DNA from: Gammaproteobacteria bacterium
Lineage (GTDB): Bacteria; Pseudomonadota; Gammaproteobacteria; Pseudomonadales; Azotimanducaceae
DNA: 64,000 bases
Assembly: GCA_009845835.1 (NCBI GenBank)
Contig: VXYV01000037.1
Location: 12,955 to 76,954 of the forward strand
Direction of reading: 5' to 3'
The notes beneath the pieces are model-generated. The model ran no database searches, was not told the DNA's origin, and saw only the letters and a list, made by a program, of their open reading frames with translations. Shown piece by piece: positions 28,934 through 42,826 of the stretch. A program made the position numbers and the translations under genes. Positions within the stretch are counted from its first letter, which is position 1. Every line of letters starts with the position of its first letter.

Positions 28934-28978
28934 GACAATATCATTGGTTGTTGGTAACTTTACACCGAGAATCTTTTT

Positions 28979-30130
28979 CTAATCGCGTTCGAGGGCAATT
29001 GCTGTCCCCTCACCGCCACCTATACAGAGCGCGGCGATTCCACGACGAAGATTTTTTACTCGTAAAGCATGTGTTAGTGTCACAATGAGTCGACTCCCAG
29101 TTGAACCCAATGGATGACCTTGAGCGCAAGAACCACCATATATGTTCACTTTACTAGGGTCTAACTTGAGGTGGTCGACTGCTAGCATAGTCACAACCGC
29201 GAAGGCTTCGTTTATCTCAAACAAATCCACAGAATCTATGTCCCATCCGGTTTGTTTAAGTAAAGTTTGAATGGCATAAATTGGTGCAAGAACAAACTTT
29301 TGTGGAGCTAATGCAATTGAGGCATGGGCAACAATGCGACAAAGGGGTTCGTGATTTTCAGCTTCGACTAATGAATCGTTTGCAAGTAGTAAAGCCGAGG
29401 CGCCGTCGGAAATTGAACTAGTACTTGCAGCAGTAATGGTACCATCTTTCCGAAATGCCGGTCGTAGACGTGGAATAGCCCCGACGTCTGACTTCCGCGG
29501 TTGTTCGTCTTCATTTAAGTCGTTTATCGGTGCGATCTCATGTTTTAGATCTTCCCTGTCCATCGCCTTTCGTGCTTTCGTTAAAGAACCAATCGCAAAT
29601 TCATCCATGCTCTCTCGAGTTACTTGATATTCATCAGCAGTTAATTGGGCATAGTCCCCCATCGTTTTGTTGGTTTCAGCATCCTCCAGACCGTCGGTGA
29701 ACATCGAATCAAGCACTTCTCGGTGCCCCAATCTATACCCTTGCCGAACACGAGGTAACAGGTGAGGCATATTTGTCATACTTTCCATCCCACCAACGAT
29801 GATACAGGAAGCGTTCTCCGATTTAATTGAGTCATGTCCAATCATGGTTGCTTTCATCCCAGAACCACACACTTTATTGACAGTTGTCGCAGGAGTAGTA
29901 TCATCCAGACCAGCTTCTCGCATTGCTTGTCTCGCAGGTGCTTGGCGTAATCCAGCGCTAACCACATTACCCATATAAACTTCATCAATCCGACTTGGAT
30001 CGATTGCTAAGTCTAGCGTGACTGACTTTATCGCATGAGCTCCTAAACTAGTCGCCGTCAATTTAGAGAACATTCCTTGAAAACTACCAATAGGTGTTCT
30101 TTTCGCCGCGAGAATAAAAGTATCGTTCAT
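28979..30130 (-). CDS. Acetyl-CoA C-acetyltransferase (thiolase II)
   Basis: 383 aa. The nucleophile Cys is NKVCGSGMKA, with GHPLGSTG and the C-terminal CIGGGEGTA. Confidence 0.9.
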   Translation of the reverse strand: MNDTFILAAKRTPIGSFQGMFSKLTATSLGAHAIKSVTLDLAIDPSRIDEVYMGNVVSAGLRQAPARQAMREAGLDDTTPATTVNKVCGSGMKATMIGHDSIKSENASCIIVGGMESMTNMPHLLPRVRQGYRLGHREVLDSMFTDGLEDAETNKTMGDYAQLTADEYQVTRESMDEFAIGSLTKARKAMDREDLKHEIAPINDLNEDEQPRKSDVGAIPRLRPAFRKDGTITAASTSSISDGASALLLANDSLVEAENHEPLCRIVAHASIALAPQKFVLAPIYAIQTLLKQTGWDIDSVDLFEINEAFAVVTMLAVDHLKLDPSKVNIYGGSCAQGHPLGSTGSRLIVTLTHALRVKNLRRGIAALCIGGGEGTAIALERD

Positions 30131-30636
30131 GAGTTGCTTGTAACCTTTAATCGGTCAATTACTTCGGCAAAATTACAGGGTTCGTGCATCGGATTTAATT
30201 GTTCATCAAGAATCTTACCCCAGGCAAGTTGACAAGCTCGTAATGAGCCAGGTAAAGCAACAATCAACGTTTTGTTTGTTATTCCAGCAAAGGCTCGCGA
30301 TTGAACCGTCGAAGATCCAATATCGGTATACGACAACCAGCGAAACAGTTCTCCGAAGCCAGGGACAGGTTTCTCCAGTAATGGTTCAATGGCGTCTGGG
30401 GTACTATCTCGCCCACTAAAACCTGTTCCCCCGGTGCAGATGATTGCATCAATACTTGGTTGTTTAATCCACTTTTGCACTATATTTTGAATTTCATCAA
30501 TGTTGTCTTTTACAATTGCCCGAGTGAACACAGAATGGGTACTGGTAGCAATCTGTTCCGCCAGATAAGCTCCTGAAGTATCGGTGTCGAGAGTCCGTGA
30601 ATCGGAAATCACGAGAATAGCTATTTCCATTTTCAC
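30127..30636 (-). CDS. moaB: Molybdenum cofactor biosynthesis protein B (MoaB/MogA fold)
   Basis: 169 aa containing ILVISDSR...[13 protein letters not shown]. It has an ATGA overlap with the thiolase start. Confidence 0.85.
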
Positions 30637-30749: not shown

Positions 30750-33700
30750 TTGATACGACAATTTCGTTCTTTAAACTATGGTGACAGGTTGAAAACCGAA
30801 CGTTTGTTTCTGACAGCCGAACGGATTGCACAAGAGTTCAATTTGTTCCCTACGGCCGATCCTAAATCACTGTATTCAGTACAGGGATTGCTGTCGGAAC
30901 AACAGATTCAAGAAAGACTTAGTCAACTCCACGCATTAGATGTTGACAGTTACATTGAACAAGTTGTTGTTCCCGCTGAGTCACCTAATCGCACTCCCGC
31001 CTCTGTTATTGTGCAGAATTTGGGTCGCGTTACCCAGTTAAACTCCGTTGGACCTTATCTCGACGCAATTGTCGAGATGGACTTTTCCTCGGCTTTGGGT
31101 AAGAGAATGGTAGCTTTTCTAGCTCAAGATCGCGTTCACACTAACGGTGTTTGGGGACCAGAAGAACACGCGCGCGCAGCGGAGTTCGTGCAAGCTACAG
31201 CGCGACGTTCAATCCCGGTAGTCAGTCTTATGGACACCCCTGGGGCGGCAGCGGACGAGAGTGCTAATCGTGGAAACCAAGCACATCATATTTCCCGACT
31301 TATTGCTGTCATGTCTGATCTTGATGTACCAAACATTGGTGTTATCTTGGGTATCGGGTATTCTGGGGGAGCTATACCGCTAGCGGCGAGCAACATGATT
31401 CTCTCAGTTCGTGATGGCGTTTTTAGCACTATTCAACCACGTGGTCTGGCAAGCATTGCGCGCCGACTCAATTTATCTTGGCAAGAGTGTGCGAAACATG
31501 TTGGACTATCGCCGTACGAACTGCTGCAACAAGGCAATATCGACGGTGTGATTGACTATGTTCCAGGAGAATCAGGCACAAACCTAGAAAACTTTCGTCG
31601 CGCGATCGTAACTGGTATCGCTTCAATCGAAGCAAGTACTAAGGCATTTGTCGCACAGGAAGAAATGTTCGTTCAGGAGTACCAAAATGTCTTAAATCGT
31701 TATCTCAATCCTACGGAACGGATGAAACAAACAGAAAGCGCTTCGTTATTTGAGTTCGTTGAAAACCCAACTGATTACCTTAACGTATTTGGGTTAGCGT
31801 ACCGACATTCTCGATACTTGCGGGTACGGCGCCGGATCAAGTCAACAAAAACCAGCGTATATGGTCGCTTAGCACAGCGAGAGTTACCAGAAGGTGAGTT
31901 GCTGCAACGCATCGAATTTGATCGACGTAAAGATTTCTTGTTATGGTTACAGGATCCTGATCGTATTGTTTACGACGACACAATTAAAAGTGCTTGGCGC
32001 AATTATTTGGCACGTAAAAGTGCGCTGGGCGATCAGCGGAATCGCTTACAACGCGCCCTATTTGGGGAACCAAAGAAAAACCTTACTGTCGCACAGAACA
32101 GTCTATTTGGTGTCGTGTGTGCTTACCTTGTTAATCGTTGGAAAGTAAGTGCTGCCGATAATCTCAAATTGTTGATTGGGTTCTTGCGTAACGAGTCGCG
32201 GCGCTTTGATCTCGTTCATCCCCAGGAAATAATGAATCCACGTGATCTGTTGAAGCAAATTGAAAGCAATGACAAAGTAGGAGAAGAACTGCGCAAACGC
32301 TTCACACATCATGGCTCGAAGTTGGTTAGAAGTAGCGAGATCGAGCGCTTAACCGACGAGCAATTGACAGAACAAATAGCGTTAGAACTGAATTTAGCTC
32401 TTACAGGTAGCTTGCTTCCCGTTTACTCGCATGAATCAGAGCAAGTCGTAGAAGACGATATCGACGTAACAACGCATAACCGGAAGCGGATAGAGAAAGA
32501 ATTTGGACGTTTTCTACGTGGTCGCAGTGTTGGATTTGCTGTCGTCGCAGAAGAAGCGACCATTAATATTCTCGACATCCTTCAACAACCTGATCTCAAA
32601 TCACTTTTTGTTGACGAACTAGAGCATCATTTAGTTTTTGATCAAGTTTACGATGGCGTCATTCGCTCGCTTGACAAGCTCGCTGCAGAAGCGAAAAATA
32701 CGCACGCGTTTGAAGCTTACACTATTCGTAATTTGTTGCTGAAAGAAACTGAAAGTGCGATCCGTGATATCAAGAATATTCCAGATGCAGACTTGACTGA
32801 AATCGAACAACACCAACAAGAGTTTTTTGCTTGGTATTTGCGGTTTGCAAGTAACGCAGTCTTTCGAAAGTATTTGGTAGCGGTTGAAGAATGGAAAAAA
32901 GCAATGTATTCGAATCTGTCGGACACGTTGTTCGTTGTCGTGACGTTTATATTCGAAAAACTCGTTGTGTCCTACTTGAAATATGAGAGTGAAAATTCAC
33001 GCTACAACGGTCGCATTACACCTCGTAATATAGGGCGTCGACGGGATTTCTGGAATAGACTGAACAACGCGTATCGAGATCTTCAAATCCAGGAAGTCTT
33101 GAAAAAATGGAGACAGACTCATCCGATCTCCTATGACGGATTCATTGAGAAATTCTTTGATGACTTTGAGCATTTGTTCACCGATCAACTGAGTAGTGAC
33201 CCAGTTCACTTCCCGGGATTTCGCATGTCCATTGAAAAAGCGATGGACAACCAATTACAACCTTGTGGAGTAGTAACTGGGATTGGTACTTTCAGACATC
33301 TCGACGTTGAGTTGCGAGTTGGGACTGTTATTTCCAACACCGCATTTCAAGCGGGTGCTTTTGATATGGCTAGTGCAGAAAAATTTTGTCGTTTGCTTCA
33401 CACTTGTGCAGATCGTCGATTACCTGTAATCTGTTTTATTTCCTCTGGGGGTATGCAAACAAAAGAAGGTGCAGGAGCTCTGTTTTCCATGGCTGCGATT
33501 AACGATCGAATTACTCATTTTGTTCGAGACTACGATCTTCCAATAGTAGTTTTTGGGTACGGGGATTGTACCGGTGGAGCCCAAGCGAGTTTTGTTACAC
33601 ATCCATTGGTCCACACGTATTACTTTGCAGGAACCAGTCTACCGTTCGCAGGTCAGATAGTAGTACCGAGTTATCTACCATTGGATTCCATTCTCTCCAA

Positions 33701-35672
33701 TTATCTAGTCAAAGTACCAGGTTCAATGCAGGGTCTAGTGCGACATCCATTTTTCGATAACTTAGACGAAGATTTACAGAAGATCGACCCAGACATCCCT
33801 GTATCTGAAGATTCAGTAGAAGATGTTGTCAAAGGTGTGATGGAAGGAGCATTGACCGCTGTACGGACGGTCGAACTACCAGTCGAACAACAGCAAAAGT
33901 CAATCAAGGAGGAAGATCTATATCGTCCAATCAAGAAGGTTATGGTACATGCGCGCGGCTGTGCCGCTGTCAAAATTGTTCGTATTGCTCAGCGTCAGGA
34001 CATTGATGTCGTTTTAGTGCAATCAGATCCGGATATGGAATCGGTTGCGGTGGATCTCTTACGAAGTCAAGATGAACTAATTTGCATCGGTGGGAGTACG
34101 CCAGATGAAAGTTATTTAAATGCCCGTTCCGTCTTGATGGTAGCCGATCAAACAAAAGTCGATTCATTACATCCGGGTATAGGGTTTCTTTCGGAGAATA
34201 GTCAATTCGCTCGACTAATTAGGCGACATGGGATCAATTTCGTCGGACCACCGGTAGCTTCGATGGAAACCATGGGTAACAAATCTAATGCGATCAATAC
34301 CGCCCTAAAACTCGGAATTCCGGTGGTACCGGGTAGTCACGGTATCGTAGATAACGTCGAACGTGCTATAGAACTCAGCCTCTCTATAGGATTTCCGATG
34401 CTCATCAAAGCGGTTCACGGTGGTGGCGGTAAAGGAATTCAACTAGTAGAATCGCCGAATGATTTCGTCGAACTATTCCAACGAGTTTCAGTCGAAGCGC
34501 GTGCCGCCTTCGGTAGTGGCGATGTATATCTCGAAAAATACATTACTAATCTTCGTCACATAGAAGTACAGATCTTGCGAGACAGTCATGGAAATACAAA
34601 GGTACTGGGCATACGTGACTGTAGTGTCCAGCGGAATCGACAGAAAATCTTCGAGGAATCTGCGTCGACGATGCTACCATCAAAACTTGAAAGAAGTGTC
34701 CACGACTATAGCGCAAAGATCGCCGACGAAGTCGGCTACGTTGGCGCGGGAACAGTTGAATTCATTTACGATCTCGATTCTAAGAACGTATACTTTATGG
34801 AGATGAACACACGGTTGCAAGTCGAACACCCTGTTACGGAGCTTGTATCAGAAGTCGATATCGTTGCCCAACAATTTGCTATTGCTTCAGGCGCTAGTAT
34901 CAGTGATCTACGTGTCGGTAGTAAAGGCTATGCTATTGAAGCCAGAATTAACGCAGAGACAGTCGCACGCGATAGTAGTGGAAAGGTAGTCTTTCGTCCA
35001 AGTGCTGGTCGCATCACGAAGTGTGAATTGCCAGAAGATCCTCGTGTCGAAGTGATTTCGATTGCCGCTAAAGAAAAATTTATTTCACCATATTACGATA
35101 GTATGATCGCGCAGATTATTGCCCACGGTTCTAGTAGAAATTCTGCTGCTGATCGGCTTTTTGCTTTTCTTGACCAAGTAAGACTTGAAGGAATTGGTAG
35201 CAATGTAGCTTTGCTTAAACGCATCTTACAAGATGAAGTCTTTCGCGGTGGCAATTACTCCACTGATTACCTACCGGACTTCCTCGAACGTACCGACACC
35301 GCAAGCTTGATTACAGAAATGCAAGACATGTGTGGGAAATCGGACTCGGAAATAGATACAAGTACTATTACGATAGAGGGTAGCGATGAATTACGAGTGT
35401 TATCGCCCACTACCGGTATTTTCTACTCTAGACCTTCACCCACTGAGACAGATTACGTTAACTCGGGAGACATCGTTGACATTGATGCAATTCTTTGTCA
35501 AATTGAAGCGTTCAAAGTTTTTGCACCGCTCCGTTTACGAGATTTAAACACAACCGGTAATGAAGAGCTATACCCAAATTCCAAGAAGTATAAGGTTACT
35601 CGTATCAATGTTGCGACTGGTCAACAGATCAATACGTCGGACTTATTGTTCATCGTCAAACCTCAAGATTAA
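30750..35672 (+). CDS. Single-chain multidomain biotin carboxylase: AccA-like CT / long linker / AccD-like CT / biotin carboxylase / BCCP
   Basis: 1640 codons. The AccA-like part is PVVSLMDTPGAAAD..GIGYSGGAIPLA. The AccD-like part is GVVTGIGTF..FQAGAFDMASAEKF..PVICFISSGGMQTKEG. The BC ATP-grasp part is GFPMLIKAVHGGGGKGIQ and MEMNTRLQVEHPVTE. The BCCP part is SPTTGIFYSRPSP...CQIEAFKVF. The start codon is uncertain because there is no in-frame ATG before codon 110. Confidence 0.85.
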   Translation: MIRQFRSLNYGDRLKTERLFLTAERIAQEFNLFPTADPKSLYSVQGLLSEQQIQERLSQLHALDVDSYIEQVVVPAESPNRTPASVIVQNLGRVTQLNSVGPYLDAIVEMDFSSALGKRMVAFLAQDRVHTNGVWGPEEHARAAEFVQATARRSIPVVSLMDTPGAAADESANRGNQAHHISRLIAVMSDLDVPNIGVILGIGYSGGAIPLAASNMILSVRDGVFSTIQPRGLASIARRLNLSWQECAKHVGLSPYELLQQGNIDGVIDYVPGESGTNLENFRRAIVTGIASIEASTKAFVAQEEMFVQEYQNVLNRYLNPTERMKQTESASLFEFVENPTDYLNVFGLAYRHSRYLRVRRRIKSTKTSVYGRLAQRELPEGELLQRIEFDRRKDFLLWLQDPDRIVYDDTIKSAWRNYLARKSALGDQRNRLQRALFGEPKKNLTVAQNSLFGVVCAYLVNRWKVSAADNLKLLIGFLRNESRRFDLVHPQEIMNPRDLLKQIESNDKVGEELRKRFTHHGSKLVRSSEIERLTDEQLTEQIALELNLALTGSLLPVYSHESEQVVEDDIDVTTHNRKRIEKEFGRFLRGRSVGFAVVAEEATINILDILQQPDLKSLFVDELEHHLVFDQVYDGVIRSLDKLAAEAKNTHAFEAYTIRNLLLKETESAIRDIKNIPDADLTEIEQHQQEFFAWYLRFASNAVFRKYLVAVEEWKKAMYSNLSDTLFVVVTFIFEKLVVSYLKYESENSRYNGRITPRNIGRRRDFWNRLNNAYRDLQIQEVLKKWRQTHPISYDGFIEKFFDDFEHLFTDQLSSDPVHFPGFRMSIEKAMDNQLQPCGVVTGIGTFRHLDVELRVGTVISNTAFQAGAFDMASAEKFCRLLHTCADRRLPVICFISSGGMQTKEGAGALFSMAAINDRITHFVRDYDLPIVVFGYGDCTGGAQASFVTHPLVHTYYFAGTSLPFAGQIVVPSYLPLDSILSNYLVKVPGSMQGLVRHPFFDNLDEDLQKIDPDIPVSEDSVEDVVKGVMEGALTAVRTVELPVEQQQKSIKEEDLYRPIKKVMVHARGCAAVKIVRIAQRQDIDVVLVQSDPDMESVAVDLLRSQDELICIGGSTPDESYLNARSVLMVADQTKVDSLHPGIGFLSENSQFARLIRRHGINFVGPPVASMETMGNKSNAINTALKLGIPVVPGSHGIVDNVERAIELSLSIGFPMLIKAVHGGGGKGIQLVESPNDFVELFQRVSVEARAAFGSGDVYLEKYITNLRHIEVQILRDSHGNTKVLGIRDCSVQRNRQKIFEESASTMLPSKLERSVHDYSAKIADEVGYVGAGTVEFIYDLDSKNVYFMEMNTRLQVEHPVTELVSEVDIVAQQFAIASGASISDLRVGSKGYAIEARINAETVARDSSGKVVFRPSAGRITKCELPEDPRVEVISIAAKEKFISPYYDSMIAQIIAHGSSRNSAADRLFAFLDQVRLEGIGSNVALLKRILQDEVFRGGNYSTDYLPDFLERTDTASLITEMQDMCGKSDSEIDTSTITIEGSDELRVLSPTTGIFYSRPSPTETDYVNSGDIVDIDAILCQIEAFKVFAPLRLRDLNTTGNEELYPNSKKYKVTRINVATGQQINTSDLLFIVKPQD

Positions 35673-36424
35673 AAGGATTGTGTCACTAGTTCCCAAACAC
35701 CTTGTAGAACACAAAGTATCGATACGAGGCGAATAATCCACGGTACCAGATTTTGAAAGGTCTGTTCTGGTACCCGGTGCAAAATTTGCACTCCACACCA
35801 GGTACCTAACATCGACACAACGACAGCTACCAAAGTAAGACCCAAGATTTCCTGGCCACTAGATAGCCAATTGAGTTGTACCGTAATGTATAGATAGTAA
35901 CCCATCTTACACACGTGTCCTATTGTTTGGGTGAATGCCTTCGTGGCGACAATTTCGAAGCGATTGAGCTGTGATTTTTGAAAAAAGAGATCTAGTATTG
36001 GTCCCGAAGTACCCGCTAGCAGTTGGGTAAATCCAACAGTTGCGCCGCAGAGGAAACTTACCCAAGGTTTTTTAATGTCAAGCCCCCAATTTTTAGGAAT
36101 GTTGACTCCAATGAGAGTGACAATTCCGATGAGTAGTAACAGCAGTCCCTTGTGAGGAACGATAGTTAGTAATACAAATGGAACTAATGCGGTAGCAGTA
36201 CCGAGAAAATAGACGGGAAGTGTAGACCATACTACATGTTGACGGATCAACAAGAACCGCGACCCGTTAGCAAATGCTTGAACGAGACCATGCAAAAACA
36301 TCGCATTCGGCACGCTCATTAGACTTACTAGGATCGCGAGCAGAATGATGCCGCCAGCCATACCGACTACACCTGACAAAAGGCTTGTCAGGAACACAGA
36401 GATGGTTACCAGCAGATACAGCAC
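35669..36424 (-). CDS. TSUP (TauE/SafE) family anion exporter
   Basis: 251 aa with about 8 TM helices. SGVVGMAGGIILLAIL and GTSGPILD are typical repeats. Confidence 0.8.
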   Translation of the reverse strand: MLYLLVTISVFLTSLLSGVVGMAGGIILLAILVSLMSVPNAMFLHGLVQAFANGSRFLLIRQHVVWSTLPVYFLGTATALVPFVLLTIVPHKGLLLLLIGIVTLIGVNIPKNWGLDIKKPWVSFLCGATVGFTQLLAGTSGPILDLFFQKSQLNRFEIVATKAFTQTIGHVCKMGYYLYITVQLNWLSSGQEILGLTLVAVVVSMLGTWCGVQILHRVPEQTFQNLVPWIIRLVSILCVLQGVWELVTQSF

Positions 36425-36492
36425 CGAGCCTACTGTGCTAATGGCTGCAGTTCGAGTCTGCCTGTCGAATATTCGCTTGAGTCAGATTTGAA

Positions 36493-39400
36493 CTAGGAGT
36501 CAGTTGCAAGCGGCGGTGGTGAACGTTCGGCCTGAGGTTCAAAATTGGCTACGACACTCCAACTACTGCGTGCCCAACGTACAAACACCACTGCAAGCCA
36601 AAGCAACCACATGACGATCAATGCCAGATATACCCATTGCGGTAGCGCAAGCAACCAAACAACGGGTAGTGATTCTCCTACTTCATCGACATACCAACTA
36701 AAGTAATTGTGAAACATATTTCCACTGGAAACATCCACCAAAACATTGATTACCAAGTAAATGACAACGATGCCAAAAATGACACCTAGCAGAACGAAAA
36801 TGCTTTGTATTACACGAAAAAGTATCTTGTACTTCGAATCTTGTTGGTTGTGCGACCGCCACCAGACCACTAATTTCCATACCCCGATCACAAAAAAGAT
36901 CCATGGATTAGTCAGCGCTGAGCCTATTGCTAAGAGAATCACTTCCACGACTGACATTCCAATATTCGGGACACGTACTAAGCAGAGTCCGAGCACAATC
37001 AAACCTGCCGCCGTGAGCCAAGTCAACACATCAGGATTCTGTGCTAAACCACCGGTCCAAATTACCCAACGATTCCGTGGTACCGACACGGTATAACTCA
37101 TATTTAAGGCTTGTTGATTCAGAGTAATAGTTGGCGATTTTTCTAATATGTCAACACCTGAAGCTGTTTCCCACTCAATTTGGTAACGGCCTAAACCGTT
37201 ACTAATCGGTAACAGTATTGTTGACGATGGTGGTATCGGTTGTTGATCGTTGTTGGCGAGAATATCTTTAATTATTGCGTTTTCCGGAATACTAATAGAA
37301 AATTCGCTCGCTTGTGTCGCTTGGACAGATAAGTACAGTGTTGTTTCCGTTGTACGCTCTTTCACGCCCATTGCTAGATGAGCCCTTTCAACCGTTAGCG
37401 TAGTACCGGGTACTCTGCTTGGCTGCGAAAATTTCAAGTCCAAAGTTTCACCTGATAGCGGTACAAAAATGGTCAAACGATTGTCGGATTGAATGGGAGT
37501 TATTCCGGCAAAATCAAGTAACCAAAACTCCGAAGTCCGAATCGACCATACTTCCGATCTTTCCGTTAGATCAGGGGCGCGCAGTTGTAGGTCCATTTGG
37601 GCATTGAACAGACTTTCCCATCTGAATGAACTTTGCCAACCTGCGAAATTGATAACCATCTCTCGAATTTCCATTAAGTCACTGTGTTCGAGTACCGCCT
37701 CGTTTGGAAGCAACGGTATTCGAACAGTAAATTCGCCGGTTTCCGGTGCGATACGCTCAACGACCGTTTCCATTCTTGGTTCATACTCTAAGTAAATCTT
37801 TCGAGTTACCGATACATAGGGATAGATGAATTGACGAGACTTCATTAATGAGTTGGTTTCATCGTCATCGTCCGTATCGCGCACTGTTTTTCGAAGCGAA
37901 AAAGATTGTTGTTGTAATTGATTTTGATTGATTCCTTCTACCTGCCAGCCTTCAGTATTCAGATAGATGTAACTGGGTAACAGTGGGAATCGAAAGTCAA
38001 GTCGGTACAAGTTGCTAATGTTTGCTATGACTGTAACATCATGGACACCTTTATCCAAAACCGTATAGAGGTGAGTTCGTTTGCGTAACAAAGGTAAGTC
38101 TACTTCATCAAGGGAAATCTCCTTAAGGTGCCAGGTATCCTCGCTCGTTGGTAATGGAACCGCTACTCGGTTGAGTGTGTGAATGCGAAGAACCATTGTC
38201 ATTTGGTCGTCATTTGTCGTAACCGTTGCTTGTTCCATATAGGCACAATCGCCTTCGCATTCCATCGCATCCAACAGTCGATCTTCAAGATCCTCAAGCA
38301 GGTCGCTGTCAGGTATCTCTGCATGTAAGTCGTTGGCCGTATTCAACATGAGACCAACCAGCAATAGACATGGCACAATGCGCACGACTCGTTTAATTAA
38401 GTTTGGTAATTGGGCGACTGTTTGCGGTACTTGAACTAATAGAAAGAATATCGAGACTACCGCCATCAGAATCGCGCCAATACCGATTGCAGTACGTGAG
38501 ACCCATGGTGGTAGTAGCACAAAATTTAGATTTTGATTGGTACTAACTGAGCCATCCCAATCAAACTGTACTGAATTGTGCCGCCAGAATGGCGTCCCTG
38601 GGCCGGTTTGTACATTTACAGCTCGAGTGTTCGTAGGTCTTGTTTGGGTACTTGAAGTGTCCCCAGTTAGATCATCTCCTGTATCACCGATATAGGCGGT
38701 CTGAGGGTTAGTGGAACTGAACTGTTGTGGAATCTTTCGGAAGAAGTCGTCAATCGTAGTCGCACCGGTTGCGGCACTGTCTTCTGCCTCATAGATGACC
38801 ATATTAGCAGTGCTACCCCCTTCTGGTAGCCGCGACCCTGTAGCAACAACCAGCCTGTCAGGTTTCGGTAATCTTCTCTGCAACTCAACGGATACAGTAT
38901 CGATTAAAGAGTAGTTATAGTTTTGTTCTTGACCGAGTTGGGGGTACAGGGCATCGCGGGCGAGAAAAGTAGCTGTGTAAATCGTCATGAGTGACACTAC
39001 AATGAGAACCACACCATAGCAGATTCGTAGAATTTTTTGTAGGTGGTTTGAACGAACAAATCGAAGCAACAGACCTAGGCTGGCAAGCCCGATCCAACCG
39101 ATCATCGGTTCGAAACTATAAGGGAAACTTAGCAATATTGTGACCGCTAGTACGGTCGTCCACAAAGTACCTCCTAGACGAAAGACTAAGATGAGTAACA
39201 GGAGAGCAAGGAATATGCTCGCGATCGACCAATGCGACACCCATGAATTTTTAACTTGATCCGAACCTTGCGACCAAAGCATCAACCAACCGGGTGGTAG
39301 ATGCATGGTCATGTTTAGACCCTGGGCTTCAATGTCCCAGCCAATCGCAGGAATGGAATTGCTTTTTTTGAACTGTGTTACCGCTTCGATTTCAGAAATG

Positions 39401-40701
39401 TCTTCCGAAACCGTTACTCCTGGTAATCGTTCCTGTTCCGGGTCGTGGAAGGTCAGTAGACGAAATTCACCGTCGACTTTTACTCGCCCCGGCAGATATT
39501 TTGAAATTAACGGTTCGGTGTCCACGGCATCGAGATAAAAAGTGTCTTCAGCAATGAACGACTCCCCTGCAAAATTTAACCATAATTCGCGTTCGACGTA
39601 GTAGTCCGTCGGACGGGGGTTAACGTCGCCCCGTTGTCCTTCCGTGAACACTAAATCTGCATCAGCCGAAAGAACAAAGCCGGTTTTTTTATCCAGTCTG
39701 TATGCGATTCGCACCGGAATATCGATTTGGTCAAGATTGGTTCGTGGTGGTCCTGCCATACTAATTACTCGAATTGCTGGATTAGGTTCTACCATCCAGA
39801 CCTCTTCGGCAGGCCAATCTTCAGAAATTTGTTGATAACTGAAACGGTTGAACTGTTCAACTGCACGGGCCTCGATCTGTACCCAATTGTTACCAACTTC
39901 GACGGCTAAGGTTACATTTCCCGATTCATCAAGAAGTGCTGGTCTACTCGATTCCAAGTGAGTTGCAAGAAACCCCGCGGGTAGTACTTCGCCGAGTGTT
40001 ATAAGGCGAGAACGACCGGTGACAGTCAGTTGAACATAGGTAACAAGCATTTGGGGCACACTATCTTCAAGTGACCGGAAAACGCGAAGTTTTTGCGTGT
40101 CTTTAGCATCAGATTCTTCAGACGGTTCAGCTGGTTTTTCCAACACTTGTGTGAGCCATAGTTTTGTTCCATGATTAGTCAGGACAGGCTGTACGATAGG
40201 CTCACCATCAATGCGAAAATTCACGATACCCGCACCGGGTAAATCGACGTATTCCAATGTGAATTCTGGATCCCAAGTTAGCTCTAAAGTTACGATGTGA
40301 ACGCCTTTGGTTAGAAATACCATCGGTTGGTTGTTACCGCCCATCACCGGTACTCTGTTACCATCAGCAAGGACGTTTCGCGGTTTAATCGAAGCTGCTA
40401 CGGGTAATGACACCTGCGTGTCCGCGAAAGCGTCCACATTCATACGAATTTGGAGTATCGGGCTGGAACTGGTTTGGAGATGTATGTCGATTTCGCGAAT
40501 CCAACCACAGTCCAAGCGAGTCCCGTTATCGAACGTCTGTGGGCAACTAATCTGCGGGTTTTGTTCTAATACCCAGTCCACCCATGGTTTGAGTACTTCT
40601 GGGACATAAACATCTTGTGTAATATCCTGTGCGTGTGCTACATATGCGCACAAGAATACACAAGCAAATAATTGCAACTTTATAAATAAATTTGTCTTCA
40701 T
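36493..40701 (-). CDS. Giant envelope protein of unknown function (internally duplicated module)
   Basis: 1402 aa. It has a signal peptide (FACVFLCAYVAHAQD), a beta-rich region of about 450 aa, a TM bundle, a Thr/Gly/Asp-rich spacer, a second signal-like helix, a second beta-rich region and a C-terminal TM bundle. Confidence 0.8.
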   Translation of the reverse strand: MKTNLFIKLQLFACVFLCAYVAHAQDITQDVYVPEVLKPWVDWVLEQNPQISCPQTFDNGTRLDCGWIREIDIHLQTSSSPILQIRMNVDAFADTQVSLPVAASIKPRNVLADGNRVPVMGGNNQPMVFLTKGVHIVTLELTWDPEFTLEYVDLPGAGIVNFRIDGEPIVQPVLTNHGTKLWLTQVLEKPAEPSEESDAKDTQKLRVFRSLEDSVPQMLVTYVQLTVTGRSRLITLGEVLPAGFLATHLESSRPALLDESGNVTLAVEVGNNWVQIEARAVEQFNRFSYQQISEDWPAEEVWMVEPNPAIRVISMAGPPRTNLDQIDIPVRIAYRLDKKTGFVLSADADLVFTEGQRGDVNPRPTDYYVERELWLNFAGESFIAEDTFYLDAVDTEPLISKYLPGRVKVDGEFRLLTFHDPEQERLPGVTVSEDISEIEAVTQFKKSNSIPAIGWDIEAQGLNMTMHLPPGWLMLWSQGSDQVKNSWVSHWSIASIFLALLLLILVFRLGGTLWTTVLAVTILLSFPYSFEPMIGWIGLASLGLLLRFVRSNHLQKILRICYGVVLIVVSLMTIYTATFLARDALYPQLGQEQNYNYSLIDTVSVELQRRLPKPDRLVVATGSRLPEGGSTANMVIYEAEDSAATGATTIDDFFRKIPQQFSSTNPQTAYIGDTGDDLTGDTSSTQTRPTNTRAVNVQTGPGTPFWRHNSVQFDWDGSVSTNQNLNFVLLPPWVSRTAIGIGAILMAVVSIFFLLVQVPQTVAQLPNLIKRVVRIVPCLLLVGLMLNTANDLHAEIPDSDLLEDLEDRLLDAMECEGDCAYMEQATVTTNDDQMTMVLRIHTLNRVAVPLPTSEDTWHLKEISLDEVDLPLLRKRTHLYTVLDKGVHDVTVIANISNLYRLDFRFPLLPSYIYLNTEGWQVEGINQNQLQQQSFSLRKTVRDTDDDDETNSLMKSRQFIYPYVSVTRKIYLEYEPRMETVVERIAPETGEFTVRIPLLPNEAVLEHSDLMEIREMVINFAGWQSSFRWESLFNAQMDLQLRAPDLTERSEVWSIRTSEFWLLDFAGITPIQSDNRLTIFVPLSGETLDLKFSQPSRVPGTTLTVERAHLAMGVKERTTETTLYLSVQATQASEFSISIPENAIIKDILANNDQQPIPPSSTILLPISNGLGRYQIEWETASGVDILEKSPTITLNQQALNMSYTVSVPRNRWVIWTGGLAQNPDVLTWLTAAGLIVLGLCLVRVPNIGMSVVEVILLAIGSALTNPWIFFVIGVWKLVVWWRSHNQQDSKYKILFRVIQSIFVLLGVIFGIVVIYLVINVLVDVSSGNMFHNYFSWYVDEVGESLPVVWLLALPQWVYLALIVMWLLWLAVVFVRWARSSWSVVANFEPQAERSPPPLATDS

Positions 40702-40781
40702 ATTGGAACCACCGTCTCCAAGTTAAACGCATGAGGTGACTTAAATTTAACTAGCATTTCATTAGATTGTAGGAATATTGC

Positions 40782-41789
40782 TCATGTCGTAATATTTAGC
40801 TGTTGCAGAATCCAAGTAGACAAAAAGCTAATCCAGTTCTTGTCGGAATTCAAACAAGGAATCAATTGGAACGATTTACCACCATTTATCATAAACGTGT
40901 TCTTTCCTTGAATTCCGATTTCTTCGAGTGTTTCGAGGTTGTCAGCGGTGAATCCGGGACAAACAACCGCAAGATTCTTGACATTTTTTTGTGCCAATCT
41001 TTTAAGGCTAAATTCGGTTGTTGGCTTGAGCCACTTAGCACGTCCTAAACGAGACTGAAAGCTAATCGAGTAGGGTAGTCCGAGCGACTCGCCGAGTAAT
41101 TTCGCAGTATGAAGACATTGATGCCGATAACAGGTTGAATGTGCAATCGACCCTATTTCACAGCAGTTTGAATCGATAAGGCAATGCTTGTTTGTTGGGT
41201 CGGCGTTCTTAATATGCGACTCGGGTAAACTATGAAAACTTATTAGTAAATGATCGATAGGATTCCGTAGATGTTCTTTCGTATGGTTTACCAACACGTT
41301 GAGATAGTTTGTGTCATTGTAAAAGGGTGGGGCAACGATCAGTTGCTTGTTTTCAATCAATTGTTCTGTATATCTGATCGACGTCGTTCTCGTGGAATCC
41401 GCATGTTGCGGATATTGCAATGCGAGGAAGATTGTTTGGTAATCCTGTAGTTGTTGAATCGCGGCATGTATCGATGGTTCCCCATATCTCATTGCGGGCA
41501 GGGTTTTGATTCCCGTAGTCTCTTCAACTTGGGCTGCAACCTGACAGGTAATCGTTCTTAATGGACCTCCATCTGTGTTCCAGATGGAACGGTAAGCTTC
41601 GGCGGAGCGGTACTTTCTGAACGGAGTAATACAAGCTTTGACCAGCGGGTATCGTATCCAAGTGGATAGATTGATTACATAGGGATCCGTAAGAAACTCG
41701 TTGAGATATTTTCCAACATCATTTGGTTTCGGGGATTTAGGAGAACCAAGATTGACGACAACTATGCTTACTGACGATTTTTGCATCAA
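40782..41789 (-). CDS. hemH: Ferrochelatase
   Basis: 335 aa containing VVNLGSP..P, LLISFHSLPE and the C-terminal LETLEEI motif. Confidence 0.9.
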   Translation of the reverse strand: MMQKSSVSIVVVNLGSPKSPKPNDVGKYLNEFLTDPYVINLSTWIRYPLVKACITPFRKYRSAEAYRSIWNTDGGPLRTITCQVAAQVEETTGIKTLPAMRYGEPSIHAAIQQLQDYQTIFLALQYPQHADSTRTTSIRYTEQLIENKQLIVAPPFYNDTNYLNVLVNHTKEHLRNPIDHLLISFHSLPESHIKNADPTNKHCLIDSNCCEIGSIAHSTCYRHQCLHTAKLLGESLGLPYSISFQSRLGRAKWLKPTTEFSLKRLAQKNVKNLAVVCPGFTADNLETLEEIGIQGKNTFMINGGKSFQLIPCLNSDKNWISFLSTWILQQLNITT

Positions 41790-41842
41790 GATTACGTTTT
41801 AACTGTTATGAATATTATCAAAAGTTCACACACACTATAAGA

Positions 41843-41848
41843 AAGGAG
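41843..41848 (+). promoter_or_regulatory. Shine-Dalgarno AAGGAG for the quinone oxidoreductase gene
   Basis: AAGGAG lies 9 nt upstream of CTG 41858, which begins the conserved (M)KAVV N-terminus. Confidence 0.55.
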
Positions 41849-41857
41849 ATTGATAAA

Positions 41858-42826
41858 CTGAAAGCTGTTGTTCAAAAAAATCAAATACTAGTATGGGATG
41901 AAGTACCAGATTTAATTCCAGATCGAGGTGAAGTCCTGATCAAGATAAAGGCTAGTGCAGTTAATCGGGCAGACTTAGCGCAACGACAAGGCCGGTACCC
42001 ACCTCCACAAGGAGTTACGGAGGTTATGGGGCTTGAGTGTAGTGGTATTGTCGCAGGTGTTGGTCGGGGAGTAGGCAGGTTCAAGATTGGTGATCAGGTT
42101 TGTGCACTTTTGGCTGGTGGAGGATATTCCGAATACGTTACCGTTGCTGCTGGACAGGTAGTATCCATTCCTGCGAATCTTTCTTTCGAACAAGCTGCTT
42201 GCTTACCAGAAGTTTTTGCAACGGCTTATTTAAATCTTTATCTGGAAGCAAAGACACTTCCAGGGGAAACGGTTTTACTTCACGCAGGTGCTAGCGGTGT
42301 TGGGACCGCAGGGATTCAACTTTGCCGTGTACTACAAAACCGGTGTTTCGTTACGGTGGGTGATCGACAGAAGCTTGCGAAATGTAAGGAATTAGGTGCG
42401 TGTGAAGGTTGGATTCGAACTGATTCTAACTTTGCTGAAGAAGTAATGAAGTGCACGAAAGGTAGAGGAGTTGATGTGATTCTAGATCCTGTTGGTGGTT
42501 CCTATTTGGAGCAAAATTTAAGCTGCCTTGCAACGGATGGTCGTTTAGTTCTCATAGGGGTAATGGGAGGAGCTGAAGCCAACCTTCATATCCGACAATT
42601 AATGGTAAAACGACAAAGGATTATCGGGTCGACATTGCGCGCTCGATCTATCGCTAGTAAATCGCAGGTGATGGATGAACTCAGTTCGCGCATCTGGCCC
42701 TACGTCAAAAGAGGGGAAATAGTCCCCATCATTCACCGAGTTTATCCTATTCAACAGGTAGATGAAGCACACCAAGAAGTCGCTTCCAACAAAACCATTG
42801 GTAAAGTAGTCTTGCAGGTCAACTAA
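41858..42826 (+). CDS. NAD(P)H:quinone oxidoreductase (zeta-crystallin/PIG3-type MDR)
   Basis: The track starts at Met 42026. However, the frame is open and homologous from 41858: (L)KAVVQKNQILVWDEVPDLIPDRGEVLIKIKASAVNRADLAQRQGRYPPP..GLECSG. The Rossmann motif is GASGVGTAG. No ATG/GTG/TTG occurs in frame upstream. Confidence 0.8.
   Translation: MKAVVQKNQILVWDEVPDLIPDRGEVLIKIKASAVNRADLAQRQGRYPPPQGVTEVMGLECSGIVAGVGRGVGRFKIGDQVCALLAGGGYSEYVTVAAGQVVSIPANLSFEQAACLPEVFATAYLNLYLEAKTLPGETVLLHAGASGVGTAGIQLCRVLQNRCFVTVGDRQKLAKCKELGACEGWIRTDSNFAEEVMKCTKGRGVDVILDPVGGSYLEQNLSCLATDGRLVLIGVMGGAEANLHIRQLMVKRQRIIGSTLRARSIASKSQVMDELSSRIWPYVKRGEIVPIIHRVYPIQQVDEAHQEVASNKTIGKVVLQVN

What the first reader, a model, noticed from the sequence alone, without database searches (positions are those of the whole stretch)
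36493..40701. 1402-aa envelope protein built from two tandem copies of a signal / beta-domain / TM-bundle module
Reading the protein against itself at an offset of about 752 residues gives matching landmarks. The signal peptide FACVFLCAYVAHAQD matches the internal signal-like VPCLLLVGLMLNTANDLHAE (nt ~38341-38391). CGWIREIDIHL..ILQIRMNVD..VSLPV matches CAYMEQATVT..TMVLRIHTL..VAVPLP. FLTKGVHIVTLEL (aa ~130) matches VLDKGVHDVTVIA (aa ~882). PPGWLMLWSQG...SHWSIASIFLALLLLIL matches RNRWVIWTGGL...LTWLTAAGLIVLGLCLV, and each is followed by a multi-helix bundle. The gene therefore looks like a fusion of two paralogous genes, with an uncleaved second signal peptide becoming a TM helix. The copies are joined by a Thr/Gly/Asp-rich spacer (IGDTGDDLTGDTSSTQTRPTNT). 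I recognise no described domain in either module.
Basis: seen in the sequence. Interest (0 to 1): 0.7.

Follow-up and report, generated by a model that had tools for sequence, protein, structure and literature searches.

The report
Internally duplicated giant inner-membrane protein
This gene encodes a 1,402-residue bacterial inner-membrane protein built from two anciently duplicated halves, each showing a large beta-sandwich domain to the periplasm; it belongs to a large, widespread family that no database describes and whose function is unknown.

Summary
The ORF is real: window 36493..40701, minus strand, 1402 aa. The two-module reading is correct, but only family-level evidence proves it.

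- **Single sequence:** the halves are not significantly similar (BLAST E 0.35; Smith-Waterman z 0.5 to 2.2).
- **Family profiles:** profiles from 31 homologues align aa 63-587 with 817-1323 (hhalign probability 98.2 %, E 5e-14; reversed control 0.2 %).
- **Structure:** AlphaFold models of both halves hit the same fold best, Ost1/ribophorin I of eukaryotic oligosaccharyltransferase.
- **Family:** about 2,900 clusters at 50 % identity. The full-length ones are about 1,330-1,470 aa. There are no Pfam, NCBIfam, PADLOC or PDB sequence matches, no conserved gene neighbours in 85 loci, and no unfused single-module genes.
- **Inferred topology:** signal peptide, periplasmic domain, 4 TM, periplasmic loop, TM5, a short cytoplasmic joint, a signal-like TM6, second periplasmic domain, 4 TM, hairpin, TM11.
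the Thr/Gly/Asp spacer is a hypervariable insert inside the first module, not the joint between copies.
- **Internal signal peptide:** it keeps an AxA-like cleavage motif across the family, so the protein may be cut into two paralogous subunits. This is untested.

My best guess at function is a non-catalytic periplasmic binding platform.

The parts
36493..40701 (-). Whole CDS: 1402 aa plus stop, ATG start. A divergent member of an unannotated family of about 1,400-aa inner-membrane proteins.
   Evidence: ORF list and translation. 37 full-length homologues. 2,920 clusters at 50 % identity with E <= 1e-3. 96 % identical copy in a Gammaproteobacteria MAG, JAPPMF010000012.1.
40630..40701 (-). N-terminal Sec signal peptide, aa 1-24 (MKTNLFIKLQLFACVFLCAYVAHA|QD). 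Basic n-region, hydrophobic core, AHA at -3/-1.
   Evidence: Sequence. Family alignment shows a variable signal peptide in every member. Low conservation, 0.25.
39232..40629 (-). Periplasmic ectodomain 1, aa 25-490. It has an amphipathic helix (VPxxLxPWVDWVL), a conserved Cys53/Cys65 pair and successive beta-sandwich domains (about 66-155, 201-292 and 293-470). It ends in the LHLPPGW motif.
   Evidence: AlphaFold model, mean pLDDT 79, blocks of 87-95 in the beta domains. Foldseek best hits are ribophorin I/Ost1 and the M1 aminopeptidase N-domain. Cys 99-100 % conserved.
38959..39231 (-). Membrane bundle 1: TM1-TM4, aa 491-581.
   Evidence: Hydropathy. AF2 helices 493-510, 512-528, 531-548 and 552-585. 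Positive-inside pattern of the loops across 227 sequences. Aligned with TM7-TM10 by hhalign.
38623..38925 (-). Hypervariable periplasmic insertion, aa 593-693, containing the Thr/Gly/Asp-rich 'spacer' (aa 671-692). It lies inside module 1, between the conserved YPQL motif and the QTGPG hairpin.
   Evidence: Mean top-residue frequency 0.12 and 55 % gaps in 227 sequences. Coordinates.
38509..38622 (-). Conserved periplasmic beta-hairpin, aa 694-731 (QTGPGxPxW ... LxWxGxV ... LLxP).
   Evidence: Q698, T699, G700, G702, P704, W706, W715, G717 and V719 are 94-100 % conserved. AF2 strands at model residues 9-14 and 17-22, but with low pLDDT of 40-49 there.
38431..38508 (-). TM5, aa 732-757 (out to in). 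Last helix of module 1.
   Evidence: Hydropathy peak at 738-756. AF2 helix at model residues 39-63. Long hydrophobic window, median 28.
38320..38430 (-). Joint between the copies, aa 758-794. It consists of a short basic cytoplasmic loop (758-773) and then the internal signal-peptide-like segment: n-region K770, R771, R774; h-region I775-L786; c-region N787-A794. The candidate signal-peptidase site is LHA|EIP, after A794.
   Evidence: Family alignment. Ala 57 % and small residues 76 % at the candidate -1 position; Pro-rich at -6 to -4; Leu-rich core. Conservation 0.27, like the N-terminal signal peptide, against 0.38-0.70 for the other TMs. Loop K+R mean 3.8.
37036..38319 (-). Periplasmic ectodomain 2, aa 795-1222. 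It has an amphipathic helix (PxxxLLxELxxRLL), a conserved Cys815/Cys819 pair and beta-sandwich domains (about 820-905, 962-1042 and 1043-1218). It ends in the DRW...GGP motif.
   Evidence: AlphaFold model, mean pLDDT 78. The eight best Foldseek hits are all Ost1/ribophorin I, E 2e-8 to 8e-7. hhalign with ectodomain 1 gives probability 97 %.
36724..37035 (-). Membrane bundle 2: TM7-TM10, aa 1223-1326. Contains the invariant Q1299.
   Evidence: Hydropathy. AF2 helices. Conservation.
36640..36723 (-). Conserved periplasmic beta-hairpin 2, aa 1327-1354. The family motif is GNxSxxxxLxWYxD...LPxAWVxSxP.
   Evidence: AF2 strands at model residues 640-648 and 656-661. Conservation 0.58.
36496..36639 (-). 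TM11 (aa 1355-1380, the most conserved helix, Trp-rich) and a basic cytoplasmic tail (aa 1381-1402).
   Evidence: Conservation 0.70. Tail K+R mean 2.6.

Best explanation
**What it is.** The gene encodes a divergent member of a large, unannotated family of stand-alone bacterial inner-membrane proteins of about 1,400 aa. The family arose by an ancient tandem duplication of a module of about 700 aa.

**The module.** Each module contains, in order:
- a Sec-type signal or signal-like segment that goes in to out;
- an amphipathic helix followed by a conserved disulfide pair;
- a periplasmic ectodomain of about 430-470 aa made of successive beta-sandwiches, whose fold most resembles Ost1/ribophorin I and the N-domain of M1 aminopeptidases;
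- a four-helix membrane bundle, a conserved periplasmic hairpin and one more TM helix.

**Topology.** The two modules give a 1+5 / 1+5 topology, with both ectodomains in the periplasm and almost nothing in the cytoplasm. I infer that the halves pack as a pseudo-heterodimer. This would be within one chain, or between two chains if signal peptidase I cuts the conserved AxA-like site of the internal signal peptide after A794.

**Function.** The protein has no cytoplasmic domain, no catalytic motif, no conserved intramembrane charge pair and no conserved partner genes. The most likely role is therefore a membrane-anchored, non-catalytic binding or scaffolding platform for a periplasmic or membrane-surface ligand (polypeptide, glycan or lipid-linked). 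An energised transporter or an enzyme is less likely.

**Shown:** the ORF, the family, the duplication and the fold-level resemblance.
**Inferred:** the topology, the pseudo-dimer, the cleavage and the binding-platform function.
For: - **Duplication:** hhalign probability 98.2 %, E 5e-14, with a clean control. About 130 of the 150 listed hits match the module-1 profile in two or three stretches.
- **Parallel structures:** both AF2 models show a helix, then beta-sandwiches, then a helical bundle. Both hit Ost1/ribophorin I best.
- **Equivalent Cys pairs:** C53/C65 and C815/C819 are 96-100 % conserved. This argues for an oxidising, periplasmic location.
- **Topology:** predicted cytoplasmic loops are rich in K+R and poor in D+E across 227 sequences.
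- **Ancient and fixed:** the full-length members are about 1,330-1,470 aa. They come from Gammaproteobacteria (Methylococcales, Pseudomonadales, Thiofilum, Leucothrix), Planctomycetota (Novipirellula) and Desulfobacterota (Desulfococcus).
- **Stand-alone:** among 626 neighbouring ORFs in 85 loci, the largest cluster occurs in 8 loci. The clusters I annotated are generic regulators and enzymes.
- **Not an enzyme or pump by sequence:** no HExxH. The conserved polar residues within or at the edges of the TM helices include D495 (88 %; Ser in this protein) and Q1299, and none form an acid/base pair. There is no similarity to AcrB.
- **Internal signal peptide:**
Against: - Function rests on the absence of features and on a fold resemblance with low TM-scores (0.13-0.26).
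- No ligand, partner or phenotype is known.
- The full-length protein was never modelled.
- The TM bundles alone are not significantly similar (E 0.027). The hairpin plus last TM shows no detectable similarity. The duplication of the last part of the module therefore rests on topology only.
- The loose AxA rule also hits 62 % of random windows. The cleavage argument depends on positional conservation, not on a validated predictor.
- This protein's clade differs from the family consensus at many near-invariant positions, so it may not share the function of the majority.
Confidence: 0.55

Rival explanations
1. The protein is an energised transporter built on the RND plan. It would have twelve membrane segments as 1+5 / 1+5, with two large periplasmic loops that capture a substrate, and it would be driven by the proton-motive force.
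For: The inferred topology (a signal or TM segment, a large periplasmic domain and five TMs, all twice) is the same plan as RND, SecDF and Patched proteins. The internal duplication is also typical of such transporters.
Against: - No Pfam hit to any family, RND-type families (ACR_tran, MMPL, SecD_SecF, Patched) included, even at E <= 1.
- hhalign of the family profile against E. coli AcrB gives probability 0.2 %.
- The ectodomains are all-beta sandwiches, not alpha/beta porter domains.
- There is no conserved intramembrane acidic/basic pair. The conserved polar residues in or near the TM helices include D495, at a helix edge and Ser in this protein, and Q1299.
- No membrane-fusion or outer-membrane-factor genes recur next to it in 85 loci.
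Confidence: 0.12
2. One reading: a fusion of two adjacent paralogous genes, in which the second signal peptide is simply retained as an uncleaved, inert transmembrane helix. The protein then works as one 155-kDa chain.
For: - The duplication is real.
- Natural cleavage of internal signal peptides in bacteria is rare (my own knowledge).
- The c-region in this protein is rather long, at 8 residues.
- AF2 models the segment as a helix next to TM5, though with a low pLDDT of about 60.
Against: - The segment keeps a basic n-region, a short Leu-rich core, Pro at -6 to -4 and Ala or a small residue at the candidate -1 position (76 %) in a fixed register before the conserved Pro, down to 23 % overall identity.
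- Its sequence conservation (0.27) equals that of the N-terminal signal peptide (0.25). It is well below every other TM (0.38-0.70), as expected if it does not pack in the bundle.
- No unfused relatives were found, so the fusion is not recent.
Confidence: 0.25
3. There is no true duplication. The matching landmarks are chance similarities between two hydrophobic, beta-rich stretches of a long protein.
For: Within the single sequence the similarity is not significant: BLAST E 0.35; Smith-Waterman z 0.5 for the ectodomains and 2.2 for the modules.
Against: - The profile-profile alignment is collinear over 475 columns with E 5e-14, and the soluble parts alone give E 1e-10. Reversed-profile controls score 0.2-0.4 %.
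- Independent AF2 models of the halves give the same order of secondary-structure elements and the same best PDB fold.
- A module-1 HMM finds a second stretch in most family members.
Confidence: 0.02

Closest known systems
Ost1 / ribophorin I (RPN1), the non-catalytic subunit of eukaryotic oligosaccharyltransferase (PDB 6ezn_A, 8agb_E, 6s7o_E, 8pn9_E)
   Same: It is the best Foldseek match of both modules, found independently: E 2e-8 to 8e-7 for module 2 and 8e-6 to 5e-4 for module 1, over 365-680 aligned columns. Both have tandem beta-sandwich domains on the non-cytoplasmic side of the membrane, anchored by C-terminal helices, and both lack catalytic motifs.
   Different: - No sequence similarity: the Ribophorin_I Pfam model does not hit even at E <= 1.
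- TM-scores are only 0.13-0.26 and rmsd is 15-33 A, so the resemblance is in local fold, not in global arrangement.
- Ost1 has one TM helix and works inside the OST complex. This protein has five helices per module, is duplicated, is bacterial and has no conserved partners.
N-terminal beta-sandwich domain of M1 zinc aminopeptidases / leukotriene A4 hydrolase. The same fold class includes the bacterial periplasmic DUF4424 domain of Legionella lpg2210 (PMC3848476) and the ITIH1 VIT region.
   Same: It is the second tier of Foldseek hits for both modules: 165-190 aligned columns, rmsd 6-8 A, probability about 1.0 for module 2. The matched domain is a non-catalytic beta-sandwich. PMC3848476 describes a bacterial domain with this fold and proposes a role in building complexes.
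   Different: There is no HExxH catalytic domain and no Pfam hit. lpg2210 itself was not among the listed hits. Here the sandwich is part of a polytopic membrane protein.
RND-superfamily transporters (AcrB, SecDF, Patched)
   Same: Both have an internally duplicated 1+5 / 1+5 membrane plan with a large periplasmic domain after the first segment of each half. For the RND side this rests on my own knowledge of its topology.
   Different: There is no sequence relationship: hhalign against AcrB gives probability 0.2 %, and there are no Pfam hits. The ectodomains are all-beta. No conserved proton-relay residues are present. No adaptor or outer-membrane partner genes recur nearby.
Bacterial membrane polyproteins split at an internal signal peptide, such as the Bradyrhizobium japonicum FbcH cytochrome b/c1 precursor. 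This precedent is cited from my own knowledge; it was not found in the searchable library.
   Same: A polytopic N-terminal part is followed by an internal signal peptide with an AxA-type site, which leads a periplasmic domain.
   Different: Cleavage here is only a hypothesis. The two products would be paralogues of each other, not unrelated subunits.

Membership tests
The unannotated ~1,400-aa family itself (homologues P0001-P0180, loci L001-L087) | Full-length collinear similarity, including both ectodomains, both bundles and motifs such as VPxxLxPWVDWVL, LHLPPGW, QTGPGxPxW and DRW..GGP. | tested here: met
   37 full-length hits, E from 0 to 1e-71, covering 93-100 % of the query for all but five of them (41-82 %, three of those being truncated sequences). 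Alignment invariants. This protein's clade departs from the consensus at many near-invariant positions, so it is a divergent member.
Ribophorin I / Ost1 (Pfam PF04597) | Sequence match to the family profile. | tested here: not met
   No Pfam hit at E <= 1 for this protein or for 18 other members. PDB profile searches do not retrieve Ost1 or RPN1.
Ribophorin I / Ost1 (Pfam PF04597) | Tandem lumenal (extracytoplasmic) beta-sandwich fold. | tested here: inconclusive
   It is the best Foldseek hit for both modules, with probability 1.0 and E down to 2e-8. However, TM-scores are 0.13-0.26 and rmsd is 15-33 A.
Ribophorin I / Ost1 (Pfam PF04597) | A single C-terminal TM helix and membership of an oligosaccharyltransferase complex. 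| tested here: not met
   There are five TM helices after each ectodomain. No conserved neighbours of any kind were found in 85 loci.
RND superfamily | 1+5 / 1+5 topology with two large periplasmic domains and an internal duplication. | tested here: met
   Hydropathy, AF2 helices and the positive-inside rule across 227 sequences, plus the duplication. The first segment is probably a cleaved signal peptide rather than a TM helix.
RND superfamily | Sequence or profile similarity to RND families. | tested here: not met
   hhalign of the family profile against E. coli AcrB gives probability 0.2 %. No Pfam or NCBIfam hits.
RND superfamily | Conserved charged residues within TM helices that form a proton relay. 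| tested here: not met
   The conserved polar residues in or near the TM helices include D495 (88 %; Ser here; at a helix edge) and Q1299. None form an acid/base pair.
M1 zinc aminopeptidases | HExxH...E zinc-binding catalytic domain. | tested here: not met
   No HExxH or HxxEH in the protein. Only the non-catalytic N-domain fold is matched.
Sec/SPase I signal peptide (applied to the internal segment aa 766-794) | Basic n-region, hydrophobic core of about 10-15 residues, and small residues at -3/-1. | tested here: met
   K770, R771, R774; core I775-L786; L-H-A at 792-794. In the family, Ala is 57 % and small residues 76 % at -1, positions -6 to -4 are Pro-rich, and the core is Leu-rich. The hydrophobic window has a median of 18, against 19 for the N-terminal signal peptide.
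Sec/SPase I signal peptide (applied to the internal segment aa 766-794) | Actual cleavage by signal peptidase I. | not testable with these tools
   This needs protein chemistry. No signal-peptide predictor was available, and the loose AxA rule is not specific, hitting 62 % of random windows.
Known anti-phage defence proteins (PADLOC) | Match to any defence-system model. | tested here: not met
   0 hits at E <= 0.1 for this protein and two relatives.

The most novel reading that the evidence does not exclude
The family may be a bacterial membrane polyprotein. After TM5 re-enters the cytoplasm, the conserved internal signal peptide would re-initiate export and be cut by signal peptidase I after A794 (LHA|EIP). 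One gene would then yield two paralogous subunits in fixed 1:1 stoichiometry, which assemble into a heterodimer. That heterodimer would carry two Ost1/ribophorin-I-like arms, a prokaryotic counterpart of the non-catalytic lumenal platform of the eukaryotic oligosaccharyltransferase. It might handle nascent exported polypeptides or lipid-linked glycans at the outer face of the inner membrane.
Probability: 0.3. Interest if true: 0.7.

Novelty: new variant of a known kind. Interest (0 to 1): 0.5.

Why it matters
The gene marks a large family: about 2,900 clusters at 50 % identity, spread over several bacterial phyla. These are very big envelope proteins that Pfam, NCBIfam, PADLOC and the PDB all miss, and that NCBI simply calls 'hypothetical protein'.

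Three results give a concrete starting point for experiments:
- the protein is an ancient internal duplication;
- its ectodomains have an Ost1/ribophorin-I-like fold;
- its membrane plan resembles RND transporters without being related to them.

The conserved internal signal peptide also offers a cheap, decisive test. If the protein is cut into two paralogous subunits, it would be one of very few natural bacterial membrane polyproteins. That would show one way in which a homodimer becomes an obligate heterodimer.

Tried and rejected
1. **Plus-strand reading of the coordinates:** full of stops. The gene is on the minus strand.
2. **Pairwise self-comparison of the single sequence:** right register, but not significant. 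Family profiles were needed.
3. **Pfam, NCBIfam and PADLOC:** scans of this protein and up to 18 relatives found nothing above noise. The source names 'DUF998 domain-containing' (P0037) and 'Bacterial Ig-like domain' (P0025) were not reproduced.
4. **PDB sequence-profile searches:** no hits for the whole family or for module 2. Module 1 gave E 2e-6 to the designed 'Pizza' beta-propellers. I reject this as an artefact: several identical designed blades each add a weak score to one profile region, and AF2 models that region confidently as a beta-sandwich.
5. **hhalign of the hairpin plus last TM of each module:** no signal. My by-eye match of IQTGPG... with IxGNGS... is therefore unsupported.
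6. **Conserved gene neighbourhood:** patatin lies downstream in two loci and amylase or pullulanase upstream in two. Clustering 626 neighbouring ORFs from 85 loci showed no recurrent partner.
7. **Unfused single-module genes:** the shorter hits end at scattered profile positions, many of them mid-domain. Several have Arg/Gly/Pro-rich junk tails, so they are fragments or frameshifts.
8. **Relationship to RND pumps:** rejected by hhalign against AcrB.
9. **A second word-indexed homologue search with the alignment:** added nothing new.
10. **The search for related loci with the full alignment:** failed for lack of conserved stretches. A single-protein scan of genomes found only the source MAG.
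11. **Literature searches:** searches for internal signal peptides and polyproteins, and for FbcH, returned nothing usable.
12. **Promoter and terminator scan:** nothing in the 80-bp and 68-bp gaps to hemH and the TauE gene.

Full report
**1. The object**

The coordinates 36493..40701 hold a single ORF of 1402 codons with an ATG start, on the minus strand. The plus-strand frame is full of stops.

The gene sits between a ferrochelatase gene upstream (40782..41789, minus strand) and a TauE-family permease gene downstream (35669..36424, minus strand). The gaps are 80 bp and 68 bp. The wider surroundings are housekeeping genes: valS, holC, lptF, and a giant fused carboxylase on the opposite strand. 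A 96 %-identical copy with the same neighbours lies in a Gammaproteobacteria MAG, JAPPMF010000012.1.

**2. Is the internal repeat real?**

Judged from this sequence alone, it is not significant.
- Smith-Waterman scores against 300 shuffles give z = 0.5 for the ectodomains and z = 2.2 for the whole modules.

Homologues settle the matter.
- The protein has 37 full-length relatives of 1,333-1,470 aa, at 23-95 % identity. I aligned 31 of them.
- Sub-alignments of the two halves align collinearly by hhalign. Residues 63-587 match 817-1323 over 475 columns, with probability 98.2 % and E 5e-14. The reversed-profile control gives 0.2 %.
- With all membrane segments removed, the two soluble domains still give probability 97 % and E 1e-10. 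The control gives 0.4 %.
- An HMM of module 1 alone, run against 1.84 billion representative proteins, matched two or three stretches in about 130 of the 150 listed hits. The single-stretch hits are almost all truncated sequences.

Two pieces are not significant on their own. These are the four-helix bundles (E 0.027) and the last hairpin plus TM. For those pieces the duplication rests on equal topology only.

**3. Anatomy and topology**

AlphaFold models were built with 19-sequence alignments. Module 1 has mean pLDDT 79 and module 2 has 78, with beta domains mostly at 85-95. Both models show the same order of elements:
- a signal or TM helix;
- a short amphipathic helix (VPxxLxPWVDWVL in module 1; PxxxLLxELxxRLL in module 2);
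- a conserved Cys pair (C53/C65 and C815/C819, 96-100 % conserved);
- successive beta-sandwich domains;
- a W-rich pre-membrane motif (LHLPPGW in module 1; DRW..GGP in module 2);
- four TM helices, a periplasmic beta-hairpin, and one more TM helix.

Across 227 sequences the loops that this model places in the cytoplasm are rich in K+R (means of 1.2-3.8) and poor in D+E. The short periplasmic turns have almost no K or R. The conserved disulfide pairs also fit a periplasmic location.

The inferred topology is therefore:
- signal peptide (aa 1-24);
- ectodomain 1 (25-490);
- TM1-4 (491-581);
- a periplasmic loop (582-731);
- TM5 (732-757);
- a cytoplasmic loop (758-773);
- the signal-like TM6 (774-794);
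- ectodomain 2 (795-1222);
- TM7-10 (1223-1326);
- a hairpin (1327-1354);
- TM11 (1355-1380);
- a cytoplasmic tail.

The Thr/Gly/Asp-rich spacer (aa 671-692) lies in a hypervariable insertion at aa 593-693 (conservation 0.12, 55 % gaps). That insertion is inside the periplasmic TM4-TM5 loop of module 1. The copies are actually joined by the short basic cytoplasmic loop.

**4. The internal signal peptide**

In all 31 aligned members, the segment before ectodomain 2 has four features:
- basic residues at its start;
- a short Leu-rich core;
- a Pro-rich stretch;
- small residues just before the conserved Pro of the following helix.

I anchored 217 sequences on that Pro. Ala is 57 % at P-3, and A, G, S or T together are 76 %. 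Ala is 35-40 % at P-4 and P-5. Positions P-7 to P-9 are Pro-rich, P-11 to P-14 are Leu-rich, and Asp or Glu follows the site in 59 %. This is the classical -3/-1 pattern with a helix breaker at -6 to -4. PMC3509430 treats AxA as the canonical prokaryotic motif (abstract seen).

In this protein the candidate site is L792-H793-A794 | E795.

Two further observations point the same way.
- The segment's sequence conservation (0.27) equals that of the N-terminal signal peptide (0.25). It is far below that of every other TM helix (0.38-0.70).
- Its hydrophobic window (median 18) equals that of the N-terminal signal peptide (19). It is shorter than TM5, TM7 and TM10 (26-28).

One caveat applies. My loose AxA rule also fires in 62 % of random windows, and no trained predictor was available. 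I therefore treat cleavage by signal peptidase I as a hypothesis, at about even odds, and not as a finding.

**5. What family is it?**

No sequence library recognises it.
- No hits in Pfam-A (2025 copy), NCBIfam (2026) or PADLOC for this protein or up to 18 relatives, even at E <= 1.
- No credible PDB sequence hit. The only formal hit is E 2e-6 to the designed 'Pizza' propellers. I regard it as an artefact of identical repeated blades.
- Names supplied by the sources are 'hypothetical protein'. Two exceptions could not be reproduced.

The family is large: 2,920 clusters at 50 % identity with E <= 1e-3, and 1,782 with E <= 1e-30. Named carriers include Methylococcales, Pseudomonadales, Thiofilum, Leucothrix, Thiolinea, Novipirellula and Desulfococcus. 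Metagenomic carriers come from sediments, soils, wetlands and marine samples.

This protein and its closest relatives (P0003-P0011, 32-57 % identity) form a divergent branch. It departs from the family consensus at many near-invariant sites. Examples are W106K, G139L, P149L, D322N, R397P, D495S, G1222N, W1254V and S1329M.

**6. Fold-level relatives**

Foldseek against the PDB gave Ost1/ribophorin I as the best match for both modules, independently.
- Module 2: the eight best hits are all yeast Ost1 or human RPN1 chains (E 2e-8 to 8e-7, 365-660 columns).
- Module 1: RPN1 at 8e-6 and 1.4e-5, and Ost1 at 5e-4.
- The second tier in both cases is the non-catalytic N-terminal beta domain of M1 aminopeptidases and LTA4 hydrolase. 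ITIH1 also appears for module 2.

TM-scores are low (0.13-0.26). The resemblance therefore concerns the type and succession of sandwiches, not their global arrangement. I cannot claim homology. A bacterial periplasmic domain with the LTA4H-N fold, DUF4424, has been described and proposed to build complexes (PMC3848476).

**7. Context and function**

I looked up five relatives individually and fetched 80 metagenomic loci. I called ORFs and clustered 626 neighbours from 85 loci.
- The largest cluster occurs in only 8 loci, at varying offsets.
- The clusters I annotated are generic paralogous families and unrelated enzymes: sigma-54 activators, GGDEF/EAL proteins, MCPs, a Mur ligase and others. 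One further recurrent cluster corresponds to an ABC ATPase already annotated.
- Patatin downstream (two taxa) and amylase or pullulanase upstream (two taxa) do not generalise.

The gene is therefore a stand-alone unit.

The protein has almost no cytoplasmic mass. It has no HExxH or other catalytic signature. It has no conserved intramembrane acid/base pair; the conserved polar residues in or near the TM helices include D495 and Q1299. It has no similarity to AcrB, even though its 1+5 / 1+5 plan with two large periplasmic domains is the RND plan.

Conservation is spread evenly over the ectodomains and bundles. It peaks in TM11 and in the two membrane-proximal hairpins.

My best reading is a pseudo-heterodimeric, membrane-anchored, non-catalytic periplasmic binding or scaffolding platform. 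The architecture part I hold at about 0.9 and the functional part at about 0.3. The main rival for function is an RND-like transporter (0.12). The main rival for processing is an uncleaved single chain (0.25).

**8. Unfused relatives**

None were seen. All 80 metagenomic loci carry the full two-module gene. The 31 shorter proteins among the database hits end at scattered positions of the family HMM, many of them mid-domain. Several have junk tails, so they are fragments or frameshifts. The duplication predates the spread of the family across phyla.

**9. Verdict**

The thing itself is an uncharacterised, widespread protein family with a clear and testable architecture.

It is a new variant of a familiar evolutionary theme: an internally duplicated polytopic membrane protein. 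Its interest is moderate. That interest would rise if the polyprotein idea, or a real link to Ost1/ribophorin I, were borne out.

Noticed in passing
window 30750-35672 (+), with 27074-30636 (-): A 1640-aa single polypeptide combines carboxyltransferase (ACCA/Carboxyl_trans) and biotin carboxylase domains. It sits next to a MoCF_biosynth-domain gene, a thiolase and a 619-aa ketoacyl synthase. The same block, together with the TauE gene, is syntenic in the 34 %-identical relative's genome (L002). It looks like an unusual fused carboxylase/condensing-enzyme cluster.
   Followed up: no
L003 12098-13288 and L004 12322-13374: A patatin-like phospholipase gene lies immediately downstream of the homologue in a Pseudomonadales MAG and in Desulfococcus. 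Alpha-amylase or pullulanase genes lie immediately upstream in Desulfococcus and in L006. Neither pairing recurs in the 85-locus survey.
   Followed up: partly
L003 6292-7986 (+): A 564-aa ORF with no Pfam match ends 14 nt before the homologue's start in the Pseudomonadales MAG. It could be a lineage-specific partner.
   Followed up: partly
window 36493-40701 (-), many codons: This protein and its near relatives replace many residues that are 85-98 % conserved in the rest of the family. Examples are W106K, G139L, P149L, D322N, W335R, R397P, E430T, R432S, D495S, W975P, G1222N, W1254V, G1326S, S1329M and R1359L. The branch may have a modified or relaxed function.
   Followed up: partly
window aa 72-158 of the protein (nt about 40228-40488): The module-1 profile matches the computationally designed 'Pizza' six-bladed propellers in the PDB at E 2e-6. 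The score is probably summed over identical blades, and AF2 models this region confidently as a beta-sandwich.
   Followed up: partly
window 42026-42826 (+): A zinc-type alcohol dehydrogenase ORF of only 266 aa has an ADH_N match that starts at profile position 36. Either the listed start codon is too far downstream or the gene is truncated at its 5' end.
   Followed up: no
window 35500-42100: Only one sigma-70-like promoter match was found, against about 11 expected from shuffles, and none lies in the intergenic gaps flanking the gene. The organism may use divergent promoters, or hemH, this gene and the TauE gene may be co-transcribed.
   Followed up: no
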